Of a stretch of 64,000 nucleotides of DNA, positions 1-15,513 are shown piece by piece. Under the pieces are notes generated by a model. It was given only the letters and a program-made list of their open reading frames with translations, was not told the origin of the DNA and made no database searches. Positions within the stretch are counted from its first letter, which is position 1. Each line of letters opens with the position of its first letter. The translations under genes were made by a program, and so were the position numbers. This DNA comes from Nitrospirota bacterium (GTDB lineage: Bacteria > Nitrospirota > UBA9217): positions 1 through 64,000 of the forward strand of contig CAVVUN010000003.1 in the NCBI GenBank assembly GCA_963751455.1. The letters are read 5' to 3'.

Positions 1-668
1 GGGCCGCCCAGTTCAAGGCGTAGATGGCGTGCTCGACTTCGGGTCCGAGCGGTACAAGACGGGTGTCCCAGCCCAGCTGCACCCCTTTCTGAAGGAGCTG
101 CTTGGTCATGCTGTCGCCGTTGACGTTGCCGCACATGAGGGTCAGGATGTTCTTCTGCTGAGATCCCGGGCGATCTCGAAAGCCTGTTCATCGCTGTCGG
201 CGGCGCCGATGATCAGACGTATCCCGGCATCGAGCCGTCCACCAGCTGCACGCCGAGGTTCCGGAGGATGGTGTCGGAGATGAACCCATTGTAGGTCAGC
301 CCGATCGAGTCATCCTTCACCGGCTCCTGGCCGTAGATGTACCGGATGGCCATGATCATTTCCTGGGCAAAGAGCGTCGCCATGCCGGCGTCCAGCGCCT
401 CTCCCAGGTACGGCTTGTACAGGTGGTCGTCGGGAGCGTCCGTGAGAAGCGGCTTCACGTGTTTCTCGAGGGCGGTCTTCATGTCTCCGACCGTCCGCAC
501 CTCGAACCCGTTCATGGCGAACATCTGCGGAAGAAAATACGCCGTGTCCGGGAACTCGAACTTGAAGTCGGCGCCTTTTTCGGTGATGGCCTTCTCGACG
601 AGGGCCTCGGCCTGCTTGACGTAGTAGTGGGCGCCCAGTATGGCGCCGGTCGCAATAACTTTTGACAT
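1..668 (-). CDS. acsB: Acetyl-CoA synthase (bacterial AcsB) N-terminal part; frameshift near 215; runs off window start
   Basis: MSKVIATGAILGA...EFPDTAYFLP...YLGEALDAGMATLFAQE...GFISDTILRNLGVQLVDGSMPG is typical of the AcsB N-terminal domain; follows acsC. Confidence 0.9.
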
Positions 669-776
669 GGGTAACTCCTTTGTAACGTTGTATTACCGCG
701 GAAACTGCGAGACCGTAGGGAGAACGACGAGCCGCTTTAACCCTGCACTCTCTGCGTCCCTGCGGTTAAACTGTTC

Positions 777-2111
777 TTATCCCCTGGCCTTCAGGAAGCT
801 CGGAAGCTGGTTCGCTTCCCGCGGCCCGACCGTGATCTTCCAGCCCGGCAGCTTCTCTTCCAGGGCGCCGGACAGGATGGCGACATACCCGGGATGATCA
901 GCTCCTTGTGGCCGATGTTCTTTTCCACGCCGCTGTCGGTGATGAACTGCGCGATCTTGCTCGCCGTAAATTTGCCGGCGGCCCAGGCGGTGAGCACCGA
1001 GAGGCCTTCATTGTCCATGACCGCCAGCCAGGCGGCAACCTTGCTGTTCTCGACCTCGCCCCGGACGATGAAGTACGAGAGCGAGAAATTCGTGGTGATC
1101 ATGAGCGGCGAATTTTCTTTCGCATCGCCGACCTTGTAGACGTTCTGCGCGACCTGCATCGGCACCTGCGGGTCGGTGTAGATGTTCTGGCGCAGCGACA
1201 GCAGCGCGAGCATCTTCCATTTTTCGACGTTGTTCAGGACGACGATGGAGGCGTACTTCATCGTGCCGATGGCCGCGACCATGGCTTCGGCAGCGTTGTC
1301 GCGGCCGGCGAACGTGATGACCGGGATAGCCAACGGCTTGAAGTTCTTCTTGATGGCCGCGCGCCGGATGATGGTGAAGTGCTCGATCATGTCCTTGGCC
1401 TTGCGGGCGCCGGAATCGAGGACCAGGTCGTCCACGCCCAGAGCCTTGACCTTCTCGGAAAGCGCGGTAAGCGCGTCGAGCCCGTCGGCTGAACGGCCAG
1501 GGAAGCCTTCTTCTCCTTGGCGATCTTCGCCATGGCCTCGGCGTTCTCGGCGGTGGCGGCGTAGATGAGCGGCTTCTTGCCGCGCAGTGCGCGATGCCCG
1601 CCTCGATCGCCGCCGGGGTCTTGCTGACCAGAATGATCGGGACGCCCGGGCGCTCCGTCTACCACCTGTTTCACCACGGAAGCGAACTTGGCAGCATCGC
1701 CGCCCTCGTCGGTCACAGCAATGGCGTCCACCCGGAGCTTCTGGCCGACACGGTCGATCTCGGAATTCTTGACTGCCTCGATCTTCCTGGCAGCCGCGTC
1801 CCCGGCTTCGGAAGCCTTTATCGCAACGGCGAACACGTTCGGGTTGAAGAATTTTTTCTCGTGGCGGAAAAGGCAGATCTCTTCGCCGACCTTCACGGCC
1901 TTGTCGCCGAGCCGAGCGTGATGCCCCGGATCGGCGGTGCAGCAGATTCGCCCAGCATTTTCTTTGCGTCCTCGGAGGCGTCGGGGCAGGCATCGAGGCT
2001 CGCCTGCTTCGCGGCCAGCTTCATGGCAAAGGCGAGACAAGTCGGGTGCCCACACTTCTTGCAGTTGGTCTTCGGAAGATGCTTGAATATTTCAACACCG
2101 GAAAGTGCCAT
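777..2111 (-). CDS. acsC: Corrinoid Fe-S protein large subunit (several frameshifts)
   Basis: LPKTNCKKCGHPTCLAFAMKLA..C 4Fe-4S motif (ORF 1893-2111); FRHEKKFFNP (1387-2055); LRQNIYTDPQ, TTNFSL, GLSVLTAWAAGKF (791-1993); reconstructed end ...LPSFLKARG-TAA at 777-779. Confidence 0.92.
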
Positions 2112-2198
2112 TCTGAACTCCTTTTATTGTAAAGTGAAAATTAAATTTATTTTTGCGTTTTGCAATTTGGAATTTCCAATTCCCGCAATTCTGGCGGG

Positions 2199-3131
2199 CT
2201 ACCCATCAGTTCGGCGATGATTTCCTTGGCCTTAGCAGCCGCGCCGGGGTGCCTCATGATCAGCATGTCCGCGCCCGCCGTGATCATGGCCGAGGCGGTA
2301 CCGCCTCCCAGGCCAGGGCCCGGTCCCCCAGACCGCCCCACTCCGGAACTTCGCGTCGGCCGCCATGGTCTCCTTCACCTTCCAGACGTTCGCGCCGATG
2401 TCGCATACAACAGGGGTCTGCATCATGGGGTCGTTCTGGAAAGCGCCGCCAGACGGATGCGCTCCATGACGCTGTAGGTATATTCGAGCCCGTACCCAGG
2501 GCCGACGACATGGGGTCCATGATGATGCGTTCCTTGTCGAATCCCATCTGGGTAAGCAGGATGTTGAGCTGCTTCGCCAGGTTCACATCGAGCTGGCTCA
2601 TGGCGATCAGCTTGTGATCATTGGCCATGGCCGCCGCGGCAACGGTCTTGTAGTTCTCCTCCACGGCCTTGCCGATGGCGCAGTTCTTGCCGCGCGTCGC
2701 CGCGGCGCAGCCTGGAGCACCTGGTGTCCTTTTCCACGTGGCCGCTGCCGAGGATGATCAGCGGGATGTCGATGGCCGCGGCAACCTCCGCCGCGATCTT
2801 GGCCGCTTCGTCGGCGCTCTTGTTCTTCTGATCGGGATGGGTGCCCATAAGCCGGAGCGCGACCACGTCAGCGCCGCTCTGCTGGCAGAATTTCGCCCAT
2901 TGCACGGGGTTCGGGATGCGCCGCCGACTGCCTTTTTCAGGGTTTCGGGCCAGTCGCTCGGCTCGATGTCCATAATCTCAAGCGCCACGGCAGGCTTATT
3001 CGGGAACGTACCTTCGAAGGCGAGAAACGGAAGTGCGCTCGCTCCGCCGATGGTCACTGCCTTTGCGCCGGATCCAAGCTGTACTTGAAAATTTTACCGC
3101 TGTAAGACTCTTTCGGAATCATCAGTGCCAT
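2199..3131 (-). CDS. acsD: Corrinoid Fe-S protein small subunit (several frameshifts; 3' end approximate)
   Basis: Fragments IGGASALPFLAFEG, WAKFCQQSGADVVALRLMGTHPD, EENYKTVAAAA..DVNLAKQLNILL..IIMDP, AGADMLIMRHP; ATG at 3131 after GAGG. Confidence 0.9.
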
Positions 3132-3232
3132 GAAAACCTCCTCAAAAATGTTAGCCATAGTAGCAAATTTTCGTCCAAGGACAATAGAAAACGTCAAATT
3201 GTACCAGCAAGTTCAAAATATTAGTTTACTGC

Positions 3233-3245
3233 GTGACATTGTCAC
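3233..3245. promoter_or_regulatory. Perfect palindrome GTGACA-T-TGTCAC upstream of acsD, possible operator
   Basis: Inverted repeat read directly; a TG-n-TACTAT extended -10 lies on the minus strand near 3157-3165. Confidence 0.35.
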
Positions 3246-3275
3246 CTGATTTTGCGTGCTTGAACCGACCTGTAT

Positions 3276-4064
3276 TTACATATCCAGATAGGAATGCGCA
3301 TACATGGTCTTGCCCATGATCATCTCGGTGGTCTTGACCGTATCCATCATGTCTTTGTCGAGCGGGTCGATAATGGCCGACGTAAGCCCTTCATACATGA
3401 GCAAGGCCAGGTAGTTCCGGTTAATGATGGGCCGCACATGTTTCGGCGCGCCGTTCGAGATGTTCGAAAGTCCCACCACGGTACTGCATCGGCGGATCAT
3501 TCAGGTCCTTGAACATCCTGACCGCGCGGATCGCCTGTCTGCCCTGGTCCTGCATGGTCGCGATCTGCAGAATGAGCGGATCGAGGAAGATGTTCTCCAT
3601 CGACACGCCGTACTCCATGCCGCGCGCCATGATCTCCGGCGCGATGACGCAACGGTCTTCGGCATCAGCCGGAAGGCCGCCCTTGCCGAGCGTAAGCGCA
3701 ACGATCTTGGTTCCGTACTTGCCTGCAAGCTCCATCATCGGGAACCGCTCCGGCTCATTGGAAGTGGAATTGATGATCGGAAGACCCCAGGGTTGTTGTG
3801 CGCCTTGATGCCGGCCTCCATGGCCTTCACGTTGGTCGTGTCAAGACAGAGCGGTTTCTGTACAACCTCATGCACAACCTTGACGGCCCAGTCCATGAGC
3901 TGTGGACCGTCATCCTCGGCGGGGCCGATCGATACGTCGATATAGTGAGCTCCCGCGTTGGCCTGCGCCACAGCAAGCTCCTGAATAGGCTTGGGGTCGC
4001 GTTTCTGCAGCGCCTCCCGCACCTTCTTCACCATAACACTGATTTTCTCTCCGATAATAATCAT
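3276..4064 (-). CDS. acsE: Methyl-THF:corrinoid methyltransferase (frameshifted)
   Basis: MIIIGEKI.., AGAHYIDVSIGP, PLCLDTTN, IFLDPLIL, VVGLSNISNG, GLTSAIIDP pterin-binding barrel motifs spread over three frames. Confidence 0.9.
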
Positions 4065-4163
4065 CCTCTGTGAATCTCCTTTCGTACTTCCTGATATAAT
4101 AATCGTCGGCAGCATTGTTTCCCTGAACCAAAACGGGTACTGCAACATCTGTTCCGTCCAGTT

Positions 4164-5055
4164 TTACTAGCAGTTGCAGCAACTCTTCCGCCGCACCACG
4201 GATATACTTTCTTTTTCCCGGGCAACCGCAACGGTCTCGCGCCCGAGTTCTTTGTAGAGCTTGACCAACGTCGGGTGCACGATGCTGCATTGCCGCAAGA
4301 TGGTCGTGCACGGTCTGGACATCGCCCCGCATAATCGGACCGGTCAGCGCGTCCGGTATGCCGAGCACTCTCTATATTGTGAAGCGTTCCCCGGATGAGG
4401 GGAAGCACCGCCTTGAGCGCTTCTTCTCTGTCGGCGCCCAACGACTCATAAAACGTAAGGCCGTAATGAACAAGCGCAACAAAATAGTTCGAAACCGCCA
4501 CGGCCCCGGCATGATACAACGCAGCAGACTGTTTGTCCGAACTCCACTTCGGCATGACAAGTTCGATTCCGCCGAGGGCTTTTACAATTTCCCGGGACGT
4601 ATCCATTGCCTCGGGGTCGGCTTCGACCCGGAAATAAGAACCCGGGAGCGTCTTAATACCCTGCTCACTGGTTGCCACGGACTGCAGCGGATGAAGAACC
4701 GCCCGCCGGGCTCCGGCATCTTTCGCTGAATCCAGAAGATCGAGCGAATGAGCGCCGGACATATGGATGACGAGCGCCTGGGATTTGAAAGAACCGTGCT
4801 GCCGAAATCTTCTCGCAAACTTCCTGGATGACCCGGTCGGGCGTGGTAATAAAAACCAGCTCCGCATTTATTGCAGATCGAACAACATCGCTTGTCGGCT
4901 GGCCGGTCTCCGATAAAGGCCGCGGCTGTTCGAGCCGATTCCTCCGTCCGCGCCGCAACGTCGTGTTATCCGGTATCCTGCCCGCTTCAACAGGAACCCT
5001 ACCGAACTGCCGACACGACCTGCGCCGATAATGGCGAACGGTATTTTCTGTTCAT
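4164..5055 (-). CDS. Rossmann-like + DUF2520 oxidoreductase (PanG-type ketopantoate reductase candidate), frameshifted; ends approximate
   Basis: FAIIGAGRVG dinucleotide motif, FITTPD, HMSGA, LHPLQS, LYHAGAVAVSN, ALTGPIMRGD. Confidence 0.75.
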
Positions 5056-5059
5056 CAGC

Positions 5060-5833
5060 TTACGGTATCAGCTTGTCCAGATACCGAAAAAAACCGGTAA
5101 GCGCCTTTGAATCCGGCGGGAAGCTGGACAAGCGGCTTGCCGTTCAGATCATACTCAAAAATGAGCTCATCGCTCGGACATAAACCCGGCGAACTCCAGA
5201 CCCTGCTGGCCGATCGTATCAATGAGCGATTTGTCCTGGCTGGTTCCGTCCTGCACCCGGTTCACAATCGAGGACCGACCGCTTGACGTTTAATTTCAGT
5301 TCCTGTACAAGTTCCCCGATCCGGCCCGCCGTCATGATGCCGCGTACCGAGGAGTCGCTGATGATGAGCAGCAGGTCAGTATCCTGGGTCGTGCGGCGGG
5401 ACAGATGCTCCAGGCCGGCCTCATTGTCCATCACAGTATACGGATAATTGTCGGCGAGCTTGTCCATGTACTTGCGGATGATATTGTTCGCCGCGCAATA
5501 GCAGCCGGCGCCTTCGGGCCTTCCCATAACCAGCAGGTCGAAGCCCTTTGCTTCAATAATGGCCTGCTGGATCTGGTAGTCGAAGAGCTGCTCCATGCTC
5601 ATGCCGCCCGGCCGGGGGGCCGTGGACTTTACCGCTTCAAGTGACGTCTCCCGTAGCTTCCCGACCGTGGCATGGACCTTGACGCCGAGCACATCATTCA
5701 GGTTCGCGTTTGCATCGGCATCAACTGCGAGAACTGCACCGCGCTTCTTTTCTGTCAAATATCGAACGGTAAGGCCGCACAAACTGGTCTTGCCCGTGCC
5801 GCCCTTTCCTGCAACTGCTATTGAAAAACCCAT
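5060..5833 (-). CDS. cooC: CooC/AcsF-type Ni-insertion ATPase (frameshift near 5270)
   Basis: AGKGGTGKT, VDADANANL, GCYC, DNEAGLEHLSR; C-terminus continues in another frame to TAA at 5060-5062. Confidence 0.88.
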
Positions 5834-5936
5834 TGTATCTCAAACTAAAGGCTCCAGATACCAGGGTCCAGAGGTCACGGGCACAGCTCTTTTCCTGACC
5901 CCTGACTATACTGACTACTGATCTCTGAGATTTCCT

Positions 5937-6665
5937 TTATTTTTTCACTCCGTACTTCTTCCTTACTTCTTCTATCTTACCGCAGGTCATCTTGCCTTCG
6001 GAGCAGGCTGCATGCAAACAGCCTGGTCCGGACTTCTCGAAGATCGTCGGCGAGACCTTCTTTACGTGCCCGAGCATTCGCTCCGCCATCTCCCGGATCT
6101 CCCACTGAGCACGATTGCAGCACCGTACCCGGAAGAAATGCAGAAGCTCCCGCGCGTTCATGGTAACGACTATCTTGGTTTCGGCCGCATTCGGCAGAAG
6201 GTAGCGCGCATCTTGCCGTCCTGCCTCTCCTTTGAAGCCCAGTTCCTCAAGACGCTTCAGGACCCTGGTGTAATTCTCCTGTGCCTCCGCCATGCACTGC
6301 TCAAACTCACGCGCTAGTACGGGATCCTGCTTAATGCTCGGCGGCATAATATAATCGAACTGTTCCGCCTTAACATAGCGCTGACTCTGCTGCGAATATG
6401 ATGCTACGCGGTGACGGACAAGCTGATGTGAACATGCCCTTGATATCCCTTCAATGCCGAAGGTAAACGACACATGCTCGATCGGAGAAAGGTGGCCTAT
6501 GGAAGCGAGCTTCTCCACGAATGCAGCCTGGTCGCCGGCCTCGATCTTCTCCTTCAGTTCCTCAACACCCGACGGGCTATAGCAGAGTTTCGCAGCCATT
6601 GCCACGACCTCTTCCGGATCGGGCGTATATCGCAGGAGGACAACATTCAATGCGGCTTCAGGCAT
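5937..6665 (-). CDS. thyX: FAD-dependent thymidylate synthase
   Basis: RHRVASYSQQSQRY signature, EHVSFTF, DARYLLP, AQWEIR. Confidence 0.96.
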   Translation of the reverse strand: MPEAALNVVLLRYTPDPEEVVAMAAKLCYSPSGVEELKEKIEAGDQAAFVEKLASIGHLSPIEHVSFTFGIEGISRACSHQLVRHRVASYSQQSQRYVKAEQFDYIMPPSIKQDPVLAREFEQCMAEAQENYTRVLKRLEELGFKGEAGRQDARYLLPNAAETKIVVTMNARELLHFFRVRCCNRAQWEIREMAERMLGHVKKVSPTIFEKSGPGCLHAACSEGKMTCGKIEEVRKKYGVKK

Positions 6666-6884
6666 CTTCCCTCCCTGCTCTCATCGAAAAAAGCGAGTGC
6701 ATCACAATTATAAAAACGGAGTATTATATCCATCGCATAACTCATGAGTCAAGAAAAAATCGTTGAATTTAGCAATAATTAATAGTAATTATTTTAATTA
6801 ACTTATAAATTTTATTGATAAAAATGCCATTGTTACCAAAAGTAGCTTAATAAGTGTTACTTATGATAACATAAGACTTATTTA

Positions 6885-7686
6885 TTATTTAAAGCTGTGT
6901 TCGGGCCCGGGGAAGGTTTCTGACTCAACTTCGCGCTTATACTCTTTGATCGCGTTGAGCGCCTGGTCCTTCAGATGCGCGTACTGTTTAACGAATTTCG
7001 GAGTGAACCGGTCAAAGAGGCCGAGAAGATCGTGGAGTACCAGAACCTGTCCGTCACAATCGGCGCCTGCGCCGATGCCGATCGTCGGTATATGCAGGAC
7101 GTTTCGGATTTCACTCGCGAGTGAAACGGGCATGGCCTCAAGCACTACCGAGAAAGCGCCTGCATCCTGAACCGACTTGGCATCCGCTAGGATTTTTTCC
7201 CGGGCTGCCTCATTCTTTCCCTGCACTTTAAAGCCGCCCAGCGCATGGACATATTGCGGGGTCAGGCCGATATGCGCCATAACCGGGATGCCTGAATCCG
7301 CGATTGCGCGGATAATTCCGGCCATTTGGGTGCCGCCTTCGAGCTTTACGGCTTCTGCGCCTGCTTCTTTCAGGAAGCGCCCTGCATTCCTGATCGCCTC
7401 AGCTGCTGTCCGCCTGATAAGAGAGAAAGGGCATATCGCCGACAACCATCGCGGAAGCAGCTGCACGCGAGACCATCTTTGTGTGATAAATCATTTCGTC
7501 CATGGTAACCGGCAGCGTGCTCGACAGACCCTGGACTACCATGCCGACGGAATCTCCGACAAGAATGATATCAATACCGGCCTGATCCACGATCTGAGCG
7601 GTAGGAAAATCATAGGCCGTGAGCATGGTTATCTTTTTGCCCTCGGTTTTCTTTTTATAGAGATCCAGAATAGTGGTTTTCGGCAT
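6885..7686 (-). CDS. panB: Ketopantoate hydroxymethyltransferase (one frameshift near 7400)
   Basis: [49 protein letters not shown]. Confidence 0.93.
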
Positions 7687-7718
7687 ATTCTTATTTTGAT
7701 TTGGACCAAGGCAACCGT

Positions 7719-7749
7719 GCCTGCACCCGCGTTTTCGCAAGAGCAGGGT
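7719..7749 (+). repeat. Short copy of the GCCTGCACCC...GCAGGGT dispersed element, inside a GGCAAC/GTTGCC hairpin
   Basis: Terminal match to copies at 8848, 19094, 34157, 46349 and 52618. Confidence 0.65.
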
Positions 7750-7790
7750 GTTGCCGTGCCTCTACGCCGACATGGTCGGCTCGCTCCAGA

Positions 7791-8756
7791 TTATGGTCTC
7801 GGATACAATCCTGCGGCTTTGACGATTCCTTCGATGGCGCTCTCCCACTCGATGGCCTGAATATGGACGCCTTTCACTCCGGGTATCTCCAGGATCTGGT
7901 GAATGAGCTCCACCGTTATCTTCAGGCCTTCGGCCTCTTGCAGTTCCCTGGCCTTCTTCTTGTCGTCTCCTGCTGCCTCTTTCGCCTTGTTCATCCGGTC
8001 GATGAGCGCCTTCGGCACTGTCACACCCGCAACAGAAGCATCCATATACTTGAGCATCATGGCGCTCCGCGGAACGATAATTCCGCCGAGGATCGCAGTC
8101 CGTTCATGTAGCCCGAGATTCCTCGCCTTTTCCATCTGGGACCTGAAGATTTCAACATCGTAAATGCCCTGGGTCTGGATAAAGTCAGCCCCTGCATCCA
8201 CTTTTTTCTTGAGGTTATAAGGCCTGAAATCGATCGGGTCCCCCATGGGCGTCCAGGAGGCGCCGATAAAGAACTTCGGTGCTACCTCGATTTTGTCTCC
8301 GCCCTCCTGCAGGCTCTCGTCGCGCATCTTTTTCATGATCCCGACAAGCTGGCAGGTATCCACGTCATACACGTTCTTTGCGCCCGGATGGCCCTTGAGC
8401 TTGCCGGCCGCGCTGAATTTCTGATGGTCGCCTGCAATGCAGAGGCAGTTTTTGAGCCCGAGCGCAGCGGCCCCGAGAAGATCTGCCTGTATCGCAATAC
8501 GGTTACGGTCCCTGCAGGTCATCTGCATGACCGGTTCGAGCCCTTCGCGCTGAGCGATGAACGCTGCCGCTATACTGGAGATGCGGACCACGGCTGTCTG
8601 GCAATCCGTGATATTTGCCGCATCGCAGAAGCCCTTCAGCTTGTGCGCTTTTTCTACGACCTCGTGAGCATCCGCGCTCATGGGCGGCCCCAGCTCCGCT
8701 GTTACTGCAGGTTTTCCGCTTGCGATGACCCGTTCAAGGTTGCTTCCGCTTTTCAT
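7791..8756 (-). CDS. metF: Methylene-THF reductase, MetF subunit
   Basis: VTAELGPP, NITD, QMTCRDRNRIAIQADLLGA, KKVDAGADFIQTQ; next to metV. Confidence 0.93.
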   Translation of the reverse strand: MKSGSNLERVIASGKPAVTAELGPPMSADAHEVVEKAHKLKGFCDAANITDCQTAVVRISSIAAAFIAQREGLEPVMQMTCRDRNRIAIQADLLGAAALGLKNCLCIAGDHQKFSAAGKLKGHPGAKNVYDVDTCQLVGIMKKMRDESLQEGGDKIEVAPKFFIGASWTPMGDPIDFRPYNLKKKVDAGADFIQTQGIYDVEIFRSQMEKARNLGLHERTAILGGIIVPRSAMMLKYMDASVAGVTVPKALIDRMNKAKEAAGDDKKKARELQEAEGLKITVELIHQILEIPGVKGVHIQAIEWESAIEGIVKAAGLYPRP

Positions 8757-8847
8757 CGAGACCTCCCAAAAATTTCTTCAAAAGCTGATTTCACCACTAA
8801 GCACGGAGCAGGTTTTCACCAAGCTTTATGCTTTTCTCCGTGTCTCT

Positions 8848-8949
8848 GCCTGCACCAGGCGTTTATGAGGCCCTTGATTCCCGTCTCGCGATTCTCAGCG
8901 AGATGGTACGACAATGAGTCTAAGTATTGTGGTATCGCGCGTGCAGGGC
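8848..8949 (+). repeat. Long (~100 bp) structured dispersed element, copy A
   Basis: Aligns end to end with 52618-52720; CCTGCAC/GTGCAGG termini; internal hairpin. Confidence 0.8.
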
Positions 8950-8967
8950 GGTGGATTCTGTTTTCGT

Positions 8968-9660
8968 TTAGCCCTTCTTTTTCTCTTCTTCCAATTCCAG
9001 AATATGCTCGAGCACGAGCCGGCGCGGGCCGCCGTGCGTCCCCGTCGACCAGTTCCGCGGCGGTTGGACGGCATACAGCTGATCGAGCTTGCCGAGTTCT
9101 TTCATCCGCTCCACGATCAGGTACCAGGCGCAGTCCACTTCATTGCTCACCTCGCACTTGCCTTTGTTCGTTCCGCCGCACGGCCCGTTCATCAGCGACT
9201 TGGAGCAGCGTACGACCGGGCAGATTCCGCCGGTCATGTGGAGAACGCAGTTGCCGCATCCCCCGCAGAGCTCCACGAAGAATCCTGCCTTGGGCACTGC
9301 GCCGAAGAACGTGGTGTTCACACCCGGATAAACAGGAATATTGCCGATCCGTTCGGACAGGAAATTGACTCCCACACCACAGGCAGTCGAGAGCACCAAA
9401 TCATAGGTTTTCACCTTTTCCATCATCGGCTCAAAGAACTCGGGTTCGCAATGGCGCTCGATGGCTGCATTATCGACCTGCATAGGCAGATTTTCCTGGG
9501 TCGCTTTCATCCGGAGCATCGATGCCAGAAGCTCCGCTTCCTTGCCGCCCCCGGCATGGCTGATCGCAACGCAGGTATTGCATCCAAAGACCAGGATCTT
9601 CTTGAAGCCCTTGACCATGTCCCAGATTTCATCAAATGGTTTCTGTTTACCGACTATCAT
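8968..9660 (-). CDS. metV: Methylene-THF reductase Fe-S/Zn subunit MetV
   Basis: GCNTC, STACGVG, CGGCGNC..GGICP..RCSKSLMNGPCGG..GKCE..CAW. Confidence 0.9.
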   Translation of the reverse strand: MIVGKQKPFDEIWDMVKGFKKILVFGCNTCVAISHAGGGKEAELLASMLRMKATQENLPMQVDNAAIERHCEPEFFEPMMEKVKTYDLVLSTACGVGVNFLSERIGNIPVYPGVNTTFFGAVPKAGFFVELCGGCGNCVLHMTGGICPVVRCSKSLMNGPCGGTNKGKCEVSNEVDCAWYLIVERMKELGKLDQLYAVQPPRNWSTGTHGGPRRLVLEHILELEEEKKKG

Positions 9661-9676
9661 TGGTCATTCACTCCTT

Positions 9677-10174
9677 TTAGCGCTGCTTGCGCGCGGCAAG
9701 CCATATTGGTGATGGTCCGAGCTTCCGGATCTTGTCTACAAATTCGTTGCACATGTCGGCCCAGCGCGGTCCCATTGCGGCTGACAGGTTGTACATCTCA
9801 AGCCGCTGCGGATCGATGCCGACCTTTGTGAGCAGTGTCTTTACGTATTCGATTCTCTTTGCTGCAAACAGATTACCTTCCAGGTAATGGCATTGGCCTT
9901 TGAGTCAGCCGGCAGCAAATATGCCGTCAACGCCTTTTTCGAACGCCCTCAGCACATGAATGTGGTCGAGCTTGCCCGTGCAGGGAAGACGGATGATCTT
10001 GACGCTCGGCGAATAGGAAAGCCGCATCACGCCGGCAAGGTCCGCTGCTGCAAACGCGCAGTAGTGACACGCGAAAGCAAGGACATTCGGCTCCCAGTCC
10101 GCGGGTGTTTCGTGCGGTTTTTCGATTGACGAGACCGCCGCGACTTTGTCCGGTGTTTCCGAAACTACAGCCAT
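9677..10174 (-). CDS. mvhD: MvhD/FlpD [2Fe-2S] subunit with selenocysteine (TGA 9905-9907), 165 aa
   Basis: FACHYCAFAAAD, RLPCTGK, DGIFAAG-U-LKGQCHYLEGN, RLEMYNLSAA; the frame continues past TGA to TAA 9677-9679 (498 nt). Confidence 0.9.
9872..9907 (-). promoter_or_regulatory. Bacterial SECIS-like hairpin
   Basis: mRNA UGA...AUUACC-UGGAA-GGUAAU; the loop starts 22 nt after UGA and has G at loop position 2. Confidence 0.75.
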
Positions 10175-10189
10175 GAATGGACTCCTTTC

Positions 10190-10240
10190 AACTGAACCGT
10201 TTAAACCGTTTGAACTGTTTAAACCGCTTAAACGGTTAAA
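10190..10240. repeat. Degenerate 9-bp tandem repeat (aaaccgttt-like) between hdrA and mvhD
   Basis: gaaccgttt aaaccgttt gaactgttt aaaccgctt aaacggtt. Confidence 0.6.
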
Positions 10241-10242
10241 TG

Positions 10243-13200
10243 CTACGACCCAACTACGCCAGCCTCGGAATCCACTGCAGCGTCGATCATCGCGAGGATC
10301 TGGTCGTCCCGGAAATTATTCACCTGGAACGCCTTTGCCGGGCAGATGCCCGCGCAGATCCCGCATCCCATGCACTTGATCTCGTTGTGCGAGACTTTTC
10401 CGTCTTCAGCGATATAGGGCGACCCGAAGGGGCAGACCCGGAAACAGCTGAGGCAGGACATGCACAGTTCCCTCTTGTGCTTGGCGATTATCCCGGATAC
10501 GGCAAGCTTTTCATGGGACAGGATAACCCCGGCCCTGCCTGCTGCGGCCAGCGCCTGAGCAATCGTTTCGTCAAAGTTCTTCGGCGCATGTCCCAGGCCG
10601 GCCACGAAAAGCCCTTCACTCGGGAAATCCACAGGACGAAGCTTGACGTGTGCTTCAAGATAATAGCCGTCGGGATTACGCGTTACCTTATACATTGCTC
10701 CAACTGCATCCGTTGTCGGATGCGGCCGAAGGCCCGCTGAAAGAACGAGCCAGTCCGCGTCGAACTGGAGCTCGCGGTCCAGCATGTAGTCCCATGCCTT
10801 GACCTGGACCCTGCTGCCTGCCTGTTCCACCACGGGCTTGCGGTCCACGTCGTATCGAACGAAGAAGACGCCCAGGTCGCGCGCTTTCTTGTAATAATCT
10901 TCCCGCAGCCCGTAGGTCCTGATGTCGCGGTAGAGGACCACTACCTCGGCTGCAGCATTCCGTTCCTTGATGGCAATCGCATTCTTGATCGCATCCTGGC
11001 AGCAGACTCGGGAGCAATACTGCGCATTCTCTTCACGTGAACCCACGCACTGGATCATCACGTAACGCTCGCCGGCCCTGGGCGAGAGGTCTTCAGCGAA
11101 CAGCTTCTTTTCGAGATCACGCTGCGTGATTACATTCGGGCTCTTGCCTGCAAGGTATTCCGTTGGCTGATATTCCACGCCGCCCGTTGCCAGAACGATA
11201 GCGCCGTGAGACATTTCAGCACCAGTGGTCAGCGTGGTCTTGAAATTACCCACAAATCCGTCGGTCTTTTTTACCTCGGCGCCGGTGTGTACCGTAATCT
11301 TGGGATGCGCCTTTACCTCCGCCACTTTCGCCGCGAGGAACTTCTGCACGTCGGAGCCATCGAGCACGCGGTAGACGTTTCTCGCGAGGCCGCCGAGCGT
11401 CTGTTCCTTCTCAACAATATGAGTCGGGAATCCCTGGTCCGCGATCGCGAGCGCAGCGGTCATTCCGGCAACCCCGCCTCCGATGACCAGGCACGCGGGC
11501 GTCACGTCAACGCTCTCGCTCTTGAGCGGTTCCTGGAGCCGGGATTTTGCCACCGACATCTTCACGATCTTGATGGCCTTCTTCGTAGCCACTTCATTCT
11601 GGCCCTTATGGCACCAGGAGCACTGTTCACGGATGTCGGCCAGGTCGAAGAGGTATTTGTTCAGGCCCGCTTCACGAATGGTCTCCTGGAAGAGCTTTTC
11701 GTGCGTGCGCGGCGTGCAGGAAGCGATCACCACGCGGTTCAGGTTCTGGTCCTTGATCGTCTGCTTGATCACGTCCTGGTTGTCCTGTGCGCAGGCGTAT
11801 ATGGTATTCGTGGCATAAACTACGTTCTTTTCCTTCTTTACAGCCTCAACGACCTGGTTCACCTCAACGGTCGAAGAGATGTTGGTACCGCAGTGGCAGA
11901 CGAACACGCCGATGCGCGCATCTTCGCCTTTCACATCCTTCTCGGGCGGAAGCTCTTTCTTGACGGTCTCGGTTCCCCTGGCTTCAGCGAGGAGTGCCAT
12001 GGCGCTTCCGGCCACACCGCTTCCCTGCATCACGGTCTCCGGAATATCCTTCGGACCCTGGTATATGCCCGTTACAAAAATGCCGTCACGGGATGTCTTG
12101 ACCGGCGTAAAGTGGGATGTCTTGGCGAAAAGGTACTGGTTTGTCTCAATGCCGAAGGTCTTCGCGAACGCTGCAGCGTCCTTATGCGGCTCGAATCCCA
12201 CGGAAAGGACGACCATATCGAAGGTTTCGTTCAGGAGCTTGCCGGCCTCGTCGGAATAACGGAGGACGAGATTGCCGGTGCCCGGTTCTTCCCGGACCGC
12301 CGAGACCATGGCACGCTTGTATTTGACGCCATATTCGTTCTTCGCCCGCTCCACGTACTTGTCGAAGTCCTTGCCGAATGCCCGCATCTCCATATAGAAG
12401 ACCGTGGGCTCGATATGCTTGTCATGCTCCTTCGCGATGATGGACTGCTTGGTTGCGTACATGCAGCAAACCGACGAGCACCACGGATTGGCATTGTGAT
12501 TATCGCGGGACCCCACGCACTGGATCCAGGCTACTTTCACCGGATGCTTCTGGTCTGACGGCCGCTGAACCACGCCTTTGAACGGACCTGATGCTGAAAG
12601 GATGCGTTCGAACTGAACGGACGAAACCACGTTCGGCCAGCGGCCCAGGCCCAATTCAGGACGCACCTTCGCGTCGTAGCGGCTGAGGCCGGGACCGAGG
12701 ATAATGGAGCCGACATGCAACTCTATTTCTTCCCCTTTGTCCTCGTAATTGATTGCGCCGGCCTTGCAGGTCTTTTCGCACAGCTTGCAGCGTTTTTTCT
12801 GCGGATCGGTCAGGAAAAGACAGTTGCTTGAGTCAATAGCGCGAGTGTTCGGAACAGCCTGGGGAAAGAGAGAGAAGATGGCCTTGCGCTGGCCCAACTG
12901 CTGGTCGAACTCGCTCAGAACTTTTTTGGGGCATTTTGCTTCGCAATCGCCACATCCCGTACACTTGGCCGGATCGACATACCGCGGAGCCCTTCGCACC
13001 TTGACCGTGAAGTCGCCGGACTCGCCCGAGACTGACGTGACCTCTGAAAGTGTGTGGATCTTGATGTTCAGGTGCCTGCCGACCTCGACCATTTTGGGCG
13101 AGATCATGCACATGGCGCAGTCGCCGGTAGGGAAGGTCTTGTCGAGCATCACCATGGTGCCGCCCACGGACATATCTTTCTGGACCATATGCACCTTGAA

Positions 13201-13299
13201 GCCGCTGTCCGCAAGATCAAGGGCCGCTTGCATGCCGCCGATGCCGCCGCCGACGATCAGGACCGAACCCCGTTTTTTCGAAGACTTTTGTGCGCTCAT
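10243..13299 (-). CDS. hdrA: Large heterodisulfide reductase subunit A (two FAD-binding modules, ferredoxin domains), 1018 aa
   Basis: GGGIGG and GGGVAG motifs, DKTFPTGDCAMC, QCVGSR twice, CSSVCC/CSRVCC, IGVFVCHCG, CTPRTHE, C-terminal 2x CxxCxxCxxxCP. Confidence 0.95.
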   Translation of the reverse strand: MSAQKSSKKRGSVLIVGGGIGGMQAALDLADSGFKVHMVQKDMSVGGTMVMLDKTFPTGDCAMCMISPKMVEVGRHLNIKIHTLSEVTSVSGESGDFTVKVRRAPRYVDPAKCTGCGDCEAKCPKKVLSEFDQQLGQRKAIFSLFPQAVPNTRAIDSSNCLFLTDPQKKRCKLCEKTCKAGAINYEDKGEEIELHVGSIILGPGLSRYDAKVRPELGLGRWPNVVSSVQFERILSASGPFKGVVQRPSDQKHPVKVAWIQCVGSRDNHNANPWCSSVCCMYATKQSIIAKEHDKHIEPTVFYMEMRAFGKDFDKYVERAKNEYGVKYKRAMVSAVREEPGTGNLVLRYSDEAGKLLNETFDMVVLSVGFEPHKDAAAFAKTFGIETNQYLFAKTSHFTPVKTSRDGIFVTGIYQGPKDIPETVMQGSGVAGSAMALLAEARGTETVKKELPPEKDVKGEDARIGVFVCHCGTNISSTVEVNQVVEAVKKEKNVVYATNTIYACAQDNQDVIKQTIKDQNLNRVVIASCTPRTHEKLFQETIREAGLNKYLFDLADIREQCSWCHKGQNEVATKKAIKIVKMSVAKSRLQEPLKSESVDVTPACLVIGGGVAGMTAALAIADQGFPTHIVEKEQTLGGLARNVYRVLDGSDVQKFLAAKVAEVKAHPKITVHTGAEVKKTDGFVGNFKTTLTTGAEMSHGAIVLATGGVEYQPTEYLAGKSPNVITQRDLEKKLFAEDLSPRAGERYVMIQCVGSREENAQYCSRVCCQDAIKNAIAIKERNAAAEVVVLYRDIRTYGLREDYYKKARDLGVFFVRYDVDRKPVVEQAGSRVQVKAWDYMLDRELQFDADWLVLSAGLRPHPTTDAVGAMYKVTRNPDGYYLEAHVKLRPVDFPSEGLFVAGLGHAPKNFDETIAQALAAAGRAGVILSHEKLAVSGIIAKHKRELCMSCLSCFRVCPFGSPYIAEDGKVSHNEIKCMGCGICAGICPAKAFQVNNFRDDQILAMIDAAVDSEAGVVGS

Positions 13300-14171
13300 A
13301 TCAGGTTCAACTCCTTTAACAGTCCCATGGCATCCACGAAGTGACGGTCAACCTGCATGGAAACAGGATCGATCCCCATGGAAACTCCGATGAGCTCAGT
13401 GATAAAGTAGACCGGCAGCCGCTTCTCAATCCCGTACTTCGCGCCTACCTGGTCCTGGCACGCGTCCACGTTCATCTGGCAGAGCGGGCAGGTGGTAACG
13501 ATGCAGTTCGCGCCCCGGGCGGTTACATCCTTGAAAATCCGGGACATGAGCAGCTGCGATTGGTCGGCGTCATTGTAAGCCGCGGAAGCGCCGCAGCAGT
13601 CTGTTTTGTAGCTCCAGTCGATAGGCTTGGCGCCGATCGCTTTGCAGACTAGTTCCATTCCCTGGGGGTTCTCGACGTCATCCGGCACATCTATGTCGAC
13701 CGGGAAACGGGTAAGCAGGCACCCGTAGTAACAGGCAGGTTTGAGGCCTTCCAGCTTTTTAACGGCTTTCCCGGCAATCTCACCCGAGGTCACCTTCGGC
13801 TTCAGCACCTCGAGAATACTGGACACCTTGATTTTGCCTTCGACCTTGAAACCCAGCTCCGCGTTTATGGATTCTTTCAGCGCGGGGTCGGCAGCAAGCT
13901 TTTTTTGCGATACGAGGGTCCTGCTGTAGCAGGACGAGCACGGAATGACGATTTCGGAAAGACCCGTGGCGTCGGCGATGCCGAGATTGCGTGCCGGCAG
14001 CGCAGTGGATAGAAATTCGTTTGTTTTGCTCGCGGCAGTTGCGCCGCAGCAGTTCCAGTCGTCGATCTCTTTGAGCTCGAGACCCAGTTTGCTGAATACA
14101 AGTTTACACTGGATGTCATAAAGCTCGGATGATGCATGCAGCGAACAACCGGGATAGTAGGCTATTTCCAT
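13296..14171 (-). CDS. hdrB: Heterodisulfide reductase subunit B (two CCG domains)
   Basis: YYPGCS..WNCCG..PCSSC; YYGCLL..DCCG..TCPLCQ. Confidence 0.95.
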   Translation of the reverse strand: MEIAYYPGCSLHASSELYDIQCKLVFSKLGLELKEIDDWNCCGATAASKTNEFLSTALPARNLGIADATGLSEIVIPCSSCYSRTLVSQKKLAADPALKESINAELGFKVEGKIKVSSILEVLKPKVTSGEIAGKAVKKLEGLKPACYYGCLLTRFPVDIDVPDDVENPQGMELVCKAIGAKPIDWSYKTDCCGASAAYNDADQSQLLMSRIFKDVTARGANCIVTTCPLCQMNVDACQDQVGAKYGIEKRLPVYFITELIGVSMGIDPVSMQVDRHFVDAMGLLKELNLI

Positions 14172-14199
14172 AGTACGGTACTCATCCTCCGTCAGGACT

Positions 14200-14802
14200 T
14201 CAGCGGCCCTTGGACTTTTTATAGAGAGCTTTCACTTCCGAGAGGTTCTTGACCTTGTCCACGCCGAAGTGCATCCGTTTCTTTTTCGTCATCGCTGCGC
14301 CGAGTTTACCCTGGCTCACGATTTCATCTATTACGGCTTTCACCTTGCCCTTCGCCAGCTCCTTAAACAGCGTCTTGGTTTCATAAATGGCCATGCTCTC
14401 GATCTCGTTGAACCGGCCAAGGTGCCGCGTTGTAGTCATGAAGGCATTGTGGAAATCCGCAATGCGGGGGGTCAACGGCTTCAGGTGCGCTTCCTTGGAC
14501 ATCTGCTTAAGCGTCTCGGTGATCCTGGCTGTCTGGATGTTGTTCGGGCAGCGCGTGCCGCAGGTATAGCAGGCAACACACTTCCAGACCAGGAGATTAT
14601 TGAGCGCCGCGTCCCTGTCTCCCACGAGAATCAATCTGATCAGACGGTCCGGCGTGATTCCTGTCTCCTCACCGACCGGACACCCGGCAGCACACCGGCG
14701 GCACTGATAGCACGCCTGCAGGTTCTGGCCGGAGCGCCGCGTGACCTCTTCGAGCAGCGGCTTTGTGATCGAAGCATCATATTTCAGTACTGAAGATGGC
14801 AT
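14200..14802 (-). CDS. hdrC: Heterodisulfide reductase subunit C
   Basis: CYQCRRCAAGCP and WKCVACYTCGTRCP. Confidence 0.93.
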   Translation of the reverse strand: MPSSVLKYDASITKPLLEEVTRRSGQNLQACYQCRRCAAGCPVGEETGITPDRLIRLILVGDRDAALNNLLVWKCVACYTCGTRCPNNIQTARITETLKQMSKEAHLKPLTPRIADFHNAFMTTTRHLGRFNEIESMAIYETKTLFKELAKGKVKAVIDEIVSQGKLGAAMTKKKRMHFGVDKVKNLSEVKALYKKSKGR

Positions 14803-14838
14803 GCCATACTCCTTACCTTAAAATGACTAAGCTATTTA

Positions 14839-14939
14839 TAACCACAGATGAACACGGATAAAATCTTAAATCAGGTAAAGGCTTGTTCTTGTGTTAAGAT
14901 TTTGAATCATCTGTGCTTATCCGTGTTAATCCGTGGTTA
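14839..14939. repeat. Intergenic long imperfect palindrome with 9-nt periodic arms (similar ones near 695-770, 39813-39957, 44966-45049, 52496-52575)
   Basis: taaccacagatgaacacggataa ... ttatccgtgttaatccgtggtta. Confidence 0.6.
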
Positions 14940-14949
14940 CAAAAAGTAT

Positions 14950-15513
14950 TTAATTCCGTTCTTTCAGGAGCTCGAGCATTTCCATGCGGGTAGACTCCTT
15001 GGTGCGGAAAATACCGCGGACAGCCGACGTAACGACCCGCGAACCTGGCTTCTTTACACCGCGCATGCTCATGCAGAGATGCTCGGCATCGATCACCACC
15101 ATGGCGCCCTTCGGTTTGAGCCTGCTCACGATAAAGTCGGCAAACTGCGTGGTGAGCCGTTCCTGCACCTGGGGACGTTTGGCGAAGACCTCAAGCGCCT
15201 TTGCCAGTGAACTGATGCCCACGATCTTCCCGGCACCCGGGATGTAGGCGATGTGGGCCTTGCCGAAAAAGGGCAACAAATGATGTTCGCACACAGAGTA
15301 AAACGGGATGTCGCGGATCATCACCATCTCGTCGTGATTTTCTCCGGCCATCGGCTTCAAAAGCTCGGACGTATCAGCCGCAATACCGGAGAAGATCTCT
15401 TCATACATCGTCGCAACACGGTCCGGCGTGTTCTTGAGACCCGGTCTGTCGGGGTCTTCGCCGATGCCCTCGATGATAAGCCTGACGCCTTTTTCGATTT
15501 TTTTTAGATCCAT
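14950..15513 (-). CDS. folE: GTP cyclohydrolase I
   Basis: [27 protein letters not shown]. Confidence 0.96.

What the first reader, a model, noticed from the sequence alone, without database searches (positions are those of the whole stretch)
9677..10174. Hidden selenoprotein: MvhD with in-frame UGA and a SECIS-like hairpin
Seen: the ORF track stops at GIFAAG*, but the same frame continues TGA-CTC-AAA-GGC-CAA-TGC-CAT-TAC (U-L-K-G-Q-C-H-Y) to a stop at 9677, giving 165 aa. A hairpin AUUACC-UGGAA-GGUAAU follows, with its loop 22 nt after the UGA. Known: this position is the Cys of the MvhD GCxxGxCHY [2Fe-2S] motif, Sec variants of MvhD/VhuD exist, and bacterial SECIS elements have a G early in a short apical loop just downstream of UGA. 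Automated pipelines would call this gene truncated.
Basis: partly seen in the sequence, partly recalled or inferred. Interest (0 to 1): 0.7.

Follow-up and report, generated by a model that had tools for sequence, protein, structure and literature searches.

The report
Selenocysteine MvhD in folate-reductase operon
The apparent stop codon in the middle of this small iron-sulfur protein gene (mvhD) is conserved in nearly all close relatives together with an RNA hairpin, so it very likely encodes selenocysteine and the gene is whole; this selenoprotein family is already known, so the case is correct but ordinary.

Summary
Confirmed. mvhD (10174-9677, minus strand) has one in-frame TGA at codon 90, and only read-through gives the whole FlpD/MvhD domain. 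The genome holds selA, selB, tRNA-Sec and a TGA-containing selD, whose one-base frameshift is probably an assembly error. Of 96 distinct close orthologs, 92 keep the TGA. All 92 keep the 6-bp stem and UGG loop, with frozen synonymous codons and one compensatory pair; 4 have Cys. The hairpin alone folds no better than shuffles. The gene lies in a conserved hdrCBA-mvhD-metVF operon (Hdr-type methylene-THF reductase) of Nitrospirota. Sec90 is inferred to be an iron ligand of the [2Fe-2S] cluster. Sec-MvhD/FrhD/VhuD is a known family: M. maripaludis VhuD has a non-standard residue at this position, and bacterial copies have been catalogued since 2006. This scan found such genes before in other genomes. 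No reads were available. New member of a known kind.

The parts
9677..10174 (-). mvhD coding sequence, 165 aa with UGA at codon 90
   Evidence: Pfam PF02662 FlpD matched over profile 1-123/123 at residues 31-153, 155.9 bits; AlphaFold model pLDDT 87.2 matches MvhD chains 7bkb_F, 5odc_D, 8rvu_F at rmsd 1.0-1.5
9905..9907 (-). in-frame UGA, inferred Sec90, in the G-U-x-x-G-x-C-H-Y motif
   Evidence: TGA in 92 of 96 distinct close orthologs and in 29 of 33 orthologs from an evenly drawn 301-genome phylum sample
9872..9888 (-). SECIS hairpin AUUACC-UGGAA-GGUAAU (loop 9882-9878)
   Evidence: matches the loop pattern N1-G-[G/U]-N-N2 and the 16-37 nt spacing quoted in PMC13188914
10182..10187 (-). 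Shine-Dalgarno-like AAGGAG 7 nt before the mvhD ATG
   Evidence: sequence
10058..10069 (-). codons for Cys36 (inferred Fe ligand) and Cys39 (inferred non-ligand redox Cys, equal to MvhD Cys16)
   Evidence: invariant in 25 of 25 aligned rows; mapping to solved MvhD; Cys16 called an additional cysteine in PMC13580544
9980..9982 (-). Cys65 codon (inferred Fe ligand)
9890..9892 (-). Cys95 codon (inferred Fe ligand), present only after read-through
14200..14802 (-). hdrC-like ferredoxin subunit
   Evidence: found near the ortholog in 60 of 80 loci, many of them cut short by contig ends
13296..14171 (-). hdrB-like CCG-domain subunit
   Evidence: 62 of 80 loci
10243..13299 (-). large hdrA (1018 aa, two flavin-binding modules), Cys-type at codon 64
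   Evidence: 79 of 80 loci
8968..9660 (-). metV; starts 16 nt after the mvhD TAA, with its ribosome-binding site directly behind that stop
   Evidence: PF12225; spacing; 80 of 80 loci
7791..8756 (-). metF, methylene-THF reductase
   Evidence: PF02219; 74 of 80 loci

Best explanation
mvhD is an intact gene whose UGA at codon 90 is very likely recoded as selenocysteine by SelB and tRNA-Sec bound at the conserved UGG-loop hairpin 22 nt downstream, giving a 165-aa protein predicted to relay electrons through a [2Fe-2S] cluster in an Hdr-type methylene-THF reductase. Shown: the frame, the complete domain after read-through, the selA/selB/selC/selD genes, conservation of UGA plus hairpin, and the hdrCBA-mvhD-metVF operon. 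Inferred: SelB binding to this loop; Sec in the protein; ligation of the cluster by Cys36, Cys65, Sec90 and Cys95 with Cys39 spare (five invariant Cys positions, and the Cys39 equivalent is described as the additional one); and the role as relay between HdrA and MetVF or a membrane partner in the Wood-Ljungdahl methyl branch.
For: Machinery: selA 605.8 bits and selB 373.4 bits, adjacent on C1 and over cut-off; tRNA-Sec C1:369631 with G73, 63.2 bits; selD over cut-off and itself with a TGA that 5 of 5 relatives share. Other selenoproteins: of 18 hand-picked candidates from a 54-row crude scan, 14 have a Pfam domain spanning the TGA, among them two molybdopterin oxidoreductases (formate-dehydrogenase-like by recall). 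Orthologs: TGA in 92 of 96 distinct close orthologs and 29 of 33 in an even phylum sample; in the 86 TGA rows printed no other codon column from 40 to 155 shows a stop among its commonest codons. Selection on the hairpin: among 83 TGA orthologs, His96 CAT, Leu98 CTG and Asn101 AAT are 83 of 83 and Tyr97 TAC 72 of 72, while the other conserved 6-fold codons have a median top-codon share of 0.425 (maximum 0.79) and 2-fold codons 0.71 (maximum 0.90). All 483 cells pair; A-U changes to U-A in 8 of 69 rows, a Tyr-to-Phe change always matched by GGT-to-GGA, needing at least 2 events on the tree. Cys forms mostly relax the hairpin: of 4 close Cys orthologs, 2 lose a stem pair and the GG, 1 loses the loop U, 1 keeps all. 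Structure: 9sfi_K has X at the positions of Cys39 and Sec90. Operon packing: the 16-nt gap to metV exists only with read-through, and the 3' half has no start codon before residue 127.
Against: No protein, labelling or read data (one search listed no run). The hairpin is weak on its own (z -1.21 to +0.44; -4.5 kcal/mol for the bare stem), and no lower stem is shared across orthologs. selD has one extra base near C2:130522 against 5 intact relatives; if real, selenophosphate synthesis would fail. A selC*-type tRNA(UCA, U73) is present and could insert Cys. Orthologs are kin, so the counts are not independent, and one search kept only the best 80 of 302 loci. The ligand assignment is by elimination; no paper I read names the four MvhD ligands.
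Confidence: 0.85

Rival explanations
1. The gene is whole and the hairpin is a real SelB site, but the UGA is read mainly as cysteine by the second tRNA (selC*/tRNA-ReC type, UCA anticodon, U73) charged by the ordinary CysRS. This could be constitutive if selD is really broken. The milder form, Cys only when selenium is short, is compatible with the best explanation.
For: Second UCA tRNA at G000:C13:3947-4041 with an 8-bp acceptor stem, 4-bp T stem, G1:C72 and U73. Its fold is supported by 7 pairs with two-sided change in 6 sequences, 0 of 500 shuffles as high. It lies right behind yedF (TIGR03527, 195.7 bits) and is found in 6 of 40 relatives. It meets the tRNA-ReC criteria quoted in PMC13582414, which says such tRNAs decode SECIS-dependent UGA as Cys. 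By eye it resembles the Smithella-type UCA rows of the PMC5389517 supplement. selD is frameshifted in this assembly.
Against: The canonical G73 tRNA-Sec, selA and selB are intact. Only one selB passes the cut-off and one cysS is found, so there is no selB* or cysS* of the kind that accompanies the tested D. biacutus tRNA. Of 7 genomes with TGA-mvhD in the 41-genome set, 3 (G013; and G016 and G027, both 100% complete) show no such tRNA, and 3 genomes with the tRNA lack a close mvhD ortholog. The CysRS C-terminus does not differ between carriers and non-carriers. One of the four T-stem pairs is U-U in this copy. dsrA is split in this assembly too, which points to assembly indels rather than loss of selD.
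Confidence: 0.12
2. The TGA is a sequencing error or a nonsense mutation (pseudogene or truncated 89-aa protein), and the hairpin is a by-product of the conserved H-Y-L-E-G-N peptide.
For: The assembly has other breaks (selD, dsrA, window 1-8.3 kb). A look-alike case exists in this genome: a D-aminoacyl-tRNA deacylase with a TGA plus hairpin that 4 of 4 matched relatives lack. The hairpin is not thermodynamically unusual.
Against: The same TGA is in 92 of 96 independently assembled orthologs. The 3' half stays conserved at the protein level. The same peptide could be written with many codons, yet they are frozen only in the hairpin, and they vary in Cys forms.
Confidence: 0.01
3. UGA90 is decoded as Sec, but Sec90 is not an iron ligand. 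[quoted passage not shown]
For: In the BCRII cryo-EM preprint the BamF selenocysteine (Sec19) is the residue near the cluster, proposed to form a selenenylsulfide.
Against: That residue is in the N-terminal part. The additional, non-ligand cysteine of MvhD is Cys16, which maps to Cys39 here, not to residue 90. With Cys39 set aside, four invariant positions remain for a four-ligand cluster, and residue 90 is one of them. A sixth Cys (142) is absent from the distant rows and from solved MvhD.
Confidence: 0.02

Closest known systems
Sec-containing VhuD of Methanococcus maripaludis (PDB 9sfi chain K)
   Same: Same family and fold; non-standard residue at the position aligned to residue 90; adaptor whose [2Fe-2S] cluster connects to the HdrA flavin.
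   Different: VhuD has two such residues (aligned to 39 and 90); this protein has Cys39 and one UGA. Archaeal SECIS elements have a different form. VhuD serves hydrogenase or formate dehydrogenase input to methanogenic Hdr; this gene sits between hdrA and metVF.
Bacterial Sec-FrhD/MvhD (19 sequences in Zhang et al. 2006, PMC1794560, incl. Moorella thermoacetica; mvhD1/2/3/5 of Desulfobacterium autotrophicum, PMC2702500; 12 in Olavius symbionts, PMC1976440)
   Same: One Sec at one of the two archaeal Sec positions, located next to hdrA, Sec-to-Cys conversions recorded.
   Different: Nitrospirota examples were not named in the passages I read. I could not see the alignment figure, so which Sec position each published bacterial sequence uses is not checked.
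Hdr-type methylene-THF reductase HdrCBA-MvhD-MetVF of Moorella thermoacetica and Sporomusa ovata (PMC9430772, PMC5736913)
   Same: Same six genes in the same order; enlarged HdrA (1018 aa here, 101 kDa in S. ovata) with two flavin modules.
   Different: MvhD here has an N-terminal extension of about 25 residues, mostly low-confidence in the model (165 aa against 14.4 kDa). The S. ovata paper does not mention selenium (0 hits). The host is a Nitrospirota relative with dsrA and CO dehydrogenase, so the direction of flux is open.
selC* tRNA-Cys / tRNA-ReC (Mukai et al., PMC5389517; Vargas-Rodriguez et al. 2018, seen only as cited in PMC13582414)
   Same: The second tRNA has UCA, U73, an 8/4 acceptor branch and a long variable arm, in a genome with selABCD.
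   Different: G1:C72 rather than A1:U72, and no selB* or cysS* found. The Thermodesulfovibrio selC* rows listed by Mukai carry GCA; this one looks by eye like the Smithella UCA type.

Membership tests
MvhD/FlpD (PF02662) | Full-length match to the family profile above cut-off | tested here: met
   155.9 bits against cut-off 22.3, profile 1-123/123
MvhD/FlpD (PF02662) | Conserved cysteine positions and MvhD fold | tested here: met
   C36, C39, C65, 90, C95 invariant in 25 rows with U read as C; TM 0.92-0.95 (target-normalised) to 7bkb_F, 5odc_D, 8rvu_F
MvhD/FlpD (PF02662) | Binds a [2Fe-2S] cluster and transfers electrons to or from HdrA | not testable with these tools
   inferred from homology and adjacency to hdrA
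Methanococcal VhuD (NF045873) | Score above the curated cut-off | tested here: not met
   141.4 bits against cut-off 215: a homolog, not a member of that archaeal subfamily
Bacterial selenoprotein | In-frame UGA at a position where homologs have Cys | tested here: met
Bacterial selenoprotein | UGA and downstream frame conserved in orthologs | tested here: met
   92 of 96; 29 of 33
Bacterial selenoprotein | selA, selB and tRNA-Sec in the genome | tested here: met
Bacterial selenoprotein | Intact selD | tested here: inconclusive
   present, over cut-off, but split by one extra base near C2:130522; intact in 5 of 5 relatives
Bacterial selenoprotein | Selenium in the protein | not testable with these tools
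   needs 75Se labelling or mass spectrometry
Bacterial SECIS (consensus quoted in PMC13188914) | 3-9 nt loop, 4-16 bp upper stem, G in the first two loop positions (N1-G-[G/U]-N-N2), 16-37 nt from UGA | tested here: met
   6-bp stem, loop U-G-G-A-A, 22 nt; loop UGGAN in 92 of 92
Bacterial SECIS (consensus quoted in PMC13188914) | Minimum free energy at or below -7.5 kcal/mol | tested here: inconclusive
   -8.5 to -11.4 for 31-58 nt windows, but -4.5 for the bare stem and no better than shuffles
Bacterial SECIS (consensus quoted in PMC13188914) | Binds SelB and is needed for read-through | not testable with these tools
   needs a reporter or binding assay
Hdr-type MTHFR operon (hdrCBA-mvhD-metVF) | All six genes, contiguous and co-oriented | tested here: met
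   order kept in relatives
Hdr-type MTHFR operon (hdrCBA-mvhD-metVF) | Physical complex and methylene-THF reductase activity | not tested
   shown by pull-down only for S. ovata; no complex prediction was run
selC*/tRNA-ReC (second tRNA, outside the window) | At least 80 nt, UCA or GCA anticodon, U73, 8/4 acceptor branch | tested here: met
   95 nt, UCA, U73, 8+4 pairs; criteria
selC*/tRNA-ReC (second tRNA, outside the window) | Charged with Cys and delivered by SelB | not testable with these tools
   no selB* or cysS* found; CysRS shows no carrier-specific change at its C-terminus

The most novel reading that the evidence does not exclude
Codon 90 is dual-decoded. The canonical tRNA-Sec inserts Sec when selenium is available, and the yedF-linked selC* tRNA(UCA, U73), using the single SelB and the ordinary CysRS, inserts Cys when it is not. 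One iron ligand of the MvhD [2Fe-2S] cluster would then switch between Se and S with selenium supply, keeping the Wood-Ljungdahl methyl branch running and possibly retuning the relay's potential without a second, Cys-type gene.
Probability: 0.2. Interest if true: 0.55.

Novelty: new member of a known kind. Interest (0 to 1): 0.25.

Why it matters
It corrects an annotation. Public sets hold this protein and several close relatives as 86-89-aa fragments, so Nitrospirota Hdr-type methylene-THF reductase operons look broken when they are whole, and their Wood-Ljungdahl methyl branch likely depends on selenium. The 92 orthologs give a clean natural test set for a minimal bacterial SECIS: a 6-bp stem with a UGGAN loop and no shared lower stem. 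If the selC* tRNA reads this codon, the gene becomes a convenient reporter for a published open question, how tRNA-Sec and tRNA-ReC share UGA codons (stated as unclear in PMC13582414).

Tried and rejected
Sequencing runs: none was listed for window 7700-14900, so the raw-read and expression checks are open. Hairpin stability as evidence: rejected, z -1.21 to +0.44. Promoter and terminator scan of 7600-15000: counts at or below shuffle level (4 against 3.1; 5 against 8.1), uninformative. A remnant SECIS behind the Cys64 codon of the window's hdrA: no clear one by folding. A CysRS change that tracks the selC* tRNA: rejected, since the Y/F-D motif is in all 21 f1-family CysRS rows shown, carriers or not. 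selB* or cysS* partners: not found in this genome. The Dtd TGA as a new selenoprotein: rejected, 4 of 4 matched relatives have no stop and 1 of 5 genomes gave no match. Papers not held: Costa 2013, Mock 2014, Vargas-Rodriguez 2018 by DOI; what I say of them comes from citing papers. A search for named MvhD ligand numbers returned one useful paper in 25 listed. A search for Nitrospirota selenoproteins listed 4 papers, none on MvhD by title or abstract start. No complex prediction was run: HdrA-MvhD is a solved textbook pair.

Full report
Observation. On the minus strand an ATG at 10174, 7 nt behind AAGGAG, opens a frame reading ...GIFAAG, then TGA (9907-9905), then LKGQCHYLEGN... to TAA at 9679-9677: 165 residues with one internal stop. 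The ORF list ends the gene at 89 aa. That 89-aa product is what the public protein collection holds; 6 of the 7 members of its cluster are 86-89 aa and one is a 173-aa form with C at this position. The hairpin AUUACC-UGGAA-GGUAAU lies at 9888-9872, loop 22 nt after the UGA. The hairpin by itself is unremarkable: z-scores run from -1.21 to +0.44 over four windows, and a loose SECIS-like hairpin follows 1,949 of 31,629 TGA-bridged frames in this genome.

The protein. With read-through it matches Pfam FlpD over the whole profile (155.9 bits, residues 31-153). It matches six solved MvhD-family sequences; the M. maripaludis VhuD chain 9sfi_K has non-standard residues (X) at the positions aligned to Cys39 and to codon 90. 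The model (pLDDT 87.2, low only at residues 1-15) superposes on 7bkb_F, 5odc_D and 8rvu_F at 1.0-1.5 A. It scores below the cut-off of the methanococcal VhuD model (141.4 against 215). The 3' half has no start codon before residue 127, and metV begins 16 nt after the TAA, so a two-gene or truncated reading fits badly.

Sec machinery. selA (605.8 bits) and selB (373.4 bits) are adjacent on contig C1 and over cut-off. A tRNA-Sec with G73 lies at C1:369631. selD is present with its own TGA but is split by one extra base near C2:130522; 5 of 5 relatives searched have it intact with the TGA. dsrA is split too, and the first 8.3 kb of the window, frameshifted in several genes, has a second 84.5%-identical, also frameshifted copy at the start of C15. 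I therefore read the selD break as a probable assembly indel, which is an inference. The genome has 5.37% estimated contamination. The six operon genes around mvhD are single intact frames; hdrC, hdrB, hdrA, metV and metF are 81-98% identical to a close relative's. A crude scan gave 54 UGA-plus-hairpin candidates. I picked 18 by eye; 14 have a Pfam domain spanning the TGA. One of these, a deacylase, is not shared by 4 of 4 matched relatives and serves as a negative control; conservation of the other 13 was not tested.

Orthologs. In 41 genomes (own plus relatives), 9 had close orthologs: 7 with TGA, 2 without. A collection scan found 302 relatives and kept the best 80, mostly titled Nitrospirota, with some Desulfobacterota, Rokubacteria and one Chloroflexota; this set is biased towards high similarity. 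An evenly drawn 301-genome phylum sample gave 33 orthologs at E <= 1e-55: 29 with TGA, and 4 without, all in one genus whose other 2 members have TGA. Pooling 116 loci and removing duplicates left 100 rows: 92 TGA, 4 close Cys forms, 4 distant Cys homologs. Three of the four Cys-form genomes have tRNA-Sec (the fourth is 83% complete), and the two tested have selA. On the tree the Cys forms sit among TGA forms with 2 changes (midpoint root, 112 columns, many forks open), which suggests Sec-to-Cys conversion.

The hairpin is selected as RNA. Among 83 distinct TGA orthologs, His96 is CAT, Leu98 is CTG and Asn101 is AAT in all 83, and Tyr97 is TAC in 72 of 72. At the other conserved degenerate positions the commonest codon reaches a median 0.425 for 6-fold and 0.71 for 2-fold codons, never above 0.90. 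All 483 cells of the 7 pairs form standard pairs. One pair flips A-U to U-A in 8 of 69 distinct rows, where a Tyr-to-Phe change is always matched by a silent GGT-to-GGA change, and the U-A pair becomes U-G in 4. The flip needs at least 2 events, so this is two or three events, not eight; five of the seven pairs never vary and say nothing by covariation. This fits the pattern N1-G-[G/U]-N-N2 and the 16-37 nt spacing quoted in PMC13188914 (passages). Of the 4 close Cys forms, 2 lose a pair and the GG, 1 changes the loop U, and 1 keeps the hairpin whole; the 4 distant Cys homologs keep 2-4 of 6 pairs. No lower stem is shared.

Context and mechanism. The gene order is hdrC-hdrB-hdrA-mvhD-metV-metF. 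Near the 80 orthologs, hdrA was found in 79, metV in 80, metF in 74, hdrB in 62 and hdrC in 60, many loci being cut by contig ends. This is the Hdr-type methylene-THF reductase proposed for Moorella thermoacetica and shown by pull-down to interact in Sporomusa ovata, where MvhD is suggested as the membrane linker (PMC9430772 passages; PMC5736913 passages). Acetyl-CoA synthase-like genes, a TGA-containing formate-dehydrogenase-like gene and a formyl-THF-ligase-like gene follow on C15 (names recalled from the translations); CO dehydrogenase and dsrA are elsewhere. Most likely SelB-GTP-Sec-tRNA binds the UGG loop and Sec enters at codon 90 (established bacterial mechanism, inferred here). Five positions are invariant: 36, 39, 65, 90, 95. 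PMC13580544 calls MvhD Cys16 an additional cysteine lying between cluster and flavin (passages), and it maps to Cys39. By elimination Cys36, Cys65, Sec90 and Cys95 hold the [2Fe-2S] cluster. This differs from BamF, whose Sec19 is described as the near-cluster residue (preprint passages). The His and Asp that follow this Cys in methanogen MvhD are Leu91 and Gln94 here.

A second UCA tRNA lies at G000:C13:3947-4041, directly behind yedF. It has an 8-bp acceptor stem, a 4-bp T stem (one pair U-U in this copy), G1:C72 and U73. It is found in 6 of 40 relatives by BLAST and by a covariance model, one copy degenerate, with 7 two-sided pair changes among 6 sequences. These are the marks of selC* tRNA-Cys (PMC5389517 passages, section 17 and the supplement table; PMC7609411 passages). 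PMC13582414 states that such tRNAs decode SECIS-dependent UGA as Cys and that in genomes carrying them UGA may be read as Cys (passages); I did not see the primary 2018 paper. Against a main role here: no selB* or cysS*, no carrier-specific CysRS change, and 3 of 7 TGA-mvhD genomes lack a detectable copy, two of them 100% complete. The supplement's alignment figures were not available as text and may bear on the type assignment.

Comparison and novelty. Sec-FrhD/MvhD is a catalogued family: 19 bacterial sequences in 2006, including Moorella thermoacetica (PMC1794560 passages), four in Desulfobacterium autotrophicum (PMC2702500 passages), and 12 in Olavius symbionts, where bacterial forms are said to carry one of the two archaeal Sec residues (PMC1976440 passages). 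PMC13518236, PMC6019823, PMC11227280 and PMC8762117 were seen as passages and add background only. Searches listed no paper devoted to Nitrospirota Sec-MvhD by title or abstract start; that is a limit of these searches, not proof of absence. This scan had already reported Sec-mvhD genes and selC* tRNAs in other genomes and nothing in this genome.

Verdict. Real, well supported, and a new member of a known kind. Confidence that the UGA is mainly read as Sec is 0.85; that the gene is whole, about 0.99. Interest 0.25. The dual-decoding reading has probability about 0.2 and would deserve about 0.55.

Noticed in passing
G000:C13:3947-4041 (-), locus L139:1501-1595: Second UCA tRNA with 8/4 fold, G1:C72 and U73 (selC*/tRNA-ReC type) right behind yedF, near rhodanese-like, dehydratase-like and LysR-like genes (last three named from recall). 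Found in 6 of 40 relatives, in several near yedF-like or LysR-like genes; no selB* or cysS* found.
   Followed up: yes
G000:C2:129959-130994 (L010) and C2:327037-328180: selD has one extra base near C2:130522 against 5 intact relatives, and dsrA is split near C2:327740; probably assembly indels.
   Followed up: partly
window 1-8326 against G000:C15:1-8345: A second copy of the metF-end-to-acs region, 84.5% identical with 195 gap openings; both copies have frameshifted genes. It looks like a mixed-strain or low-coverage contig end.
   Followed up: partly
window 13108-13110 (-), hdrA codon 64: The second Cys of the HdrA CxxC is TGC here but TGA in 3 of the 80 related loci (L112, L118, L125), which are thus candidate double-selenoprotein operons.
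   Followed up: partly
window 8835-8948: A dispersed repeat of about 70-100 bp between metV and metF, with 9 further BLAST hits on five contigs at 87-96% identity.
   Followed up: no
window 10190-10240: The hdrA-mvhD spacer is made of AT-rich, partly palindromic units (GGTTTAAAC-like) repeated several times.
   Followed up: no
G000:C15:1645163 (L164), C2:440203 (L165), C1:53280 (L161), C2:128696 (L166), C6:115779 (L163): Further UGA-plus-hairpin candidates: a pyridine nucleotide-disulfide oxidoreductase with CLNVG-U, a 1130-aa YARHG/ankyrin protein with GC-U, a CxxCH-rich 432-aa protein without Pfam hit, a 99-aa frame about 1.2 kb upstream of selD, and a MerB-like protein. Conservation not tested.
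   Followed up: partly
G000:C15:564963 (L167): D-aminoacyl-tRNA deacylase with an in-frame TGA; 4 of 4 matched relatives have none, so likely an error or nonsense change.
   Followed up: yes
L132 (G000:C15:975640-977103) and relatives: All 21 CysRS rows of the window's family end in [YF]DR..G..WK.K, where most other families shown have ED or LD; the change is family-wide and does not track the selC* tRNA.
   Followed up: partly
L117:8217-8264: A Cys-codon mvhD (Desulfatiglandales) that keeps the whole hairpin while its sister L118 has TGA: a likely remnant SECIS after recent Sec-to-Cys change.
   Followed up: partly
G000:C8:11192-11668 and C15:1557169-1557582: Two distant Cys-type MvhD-domain paralogs (28% and 22% identity), the first inside a 682-aa open frame (QmoB-like by recall).
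   Followed up: no
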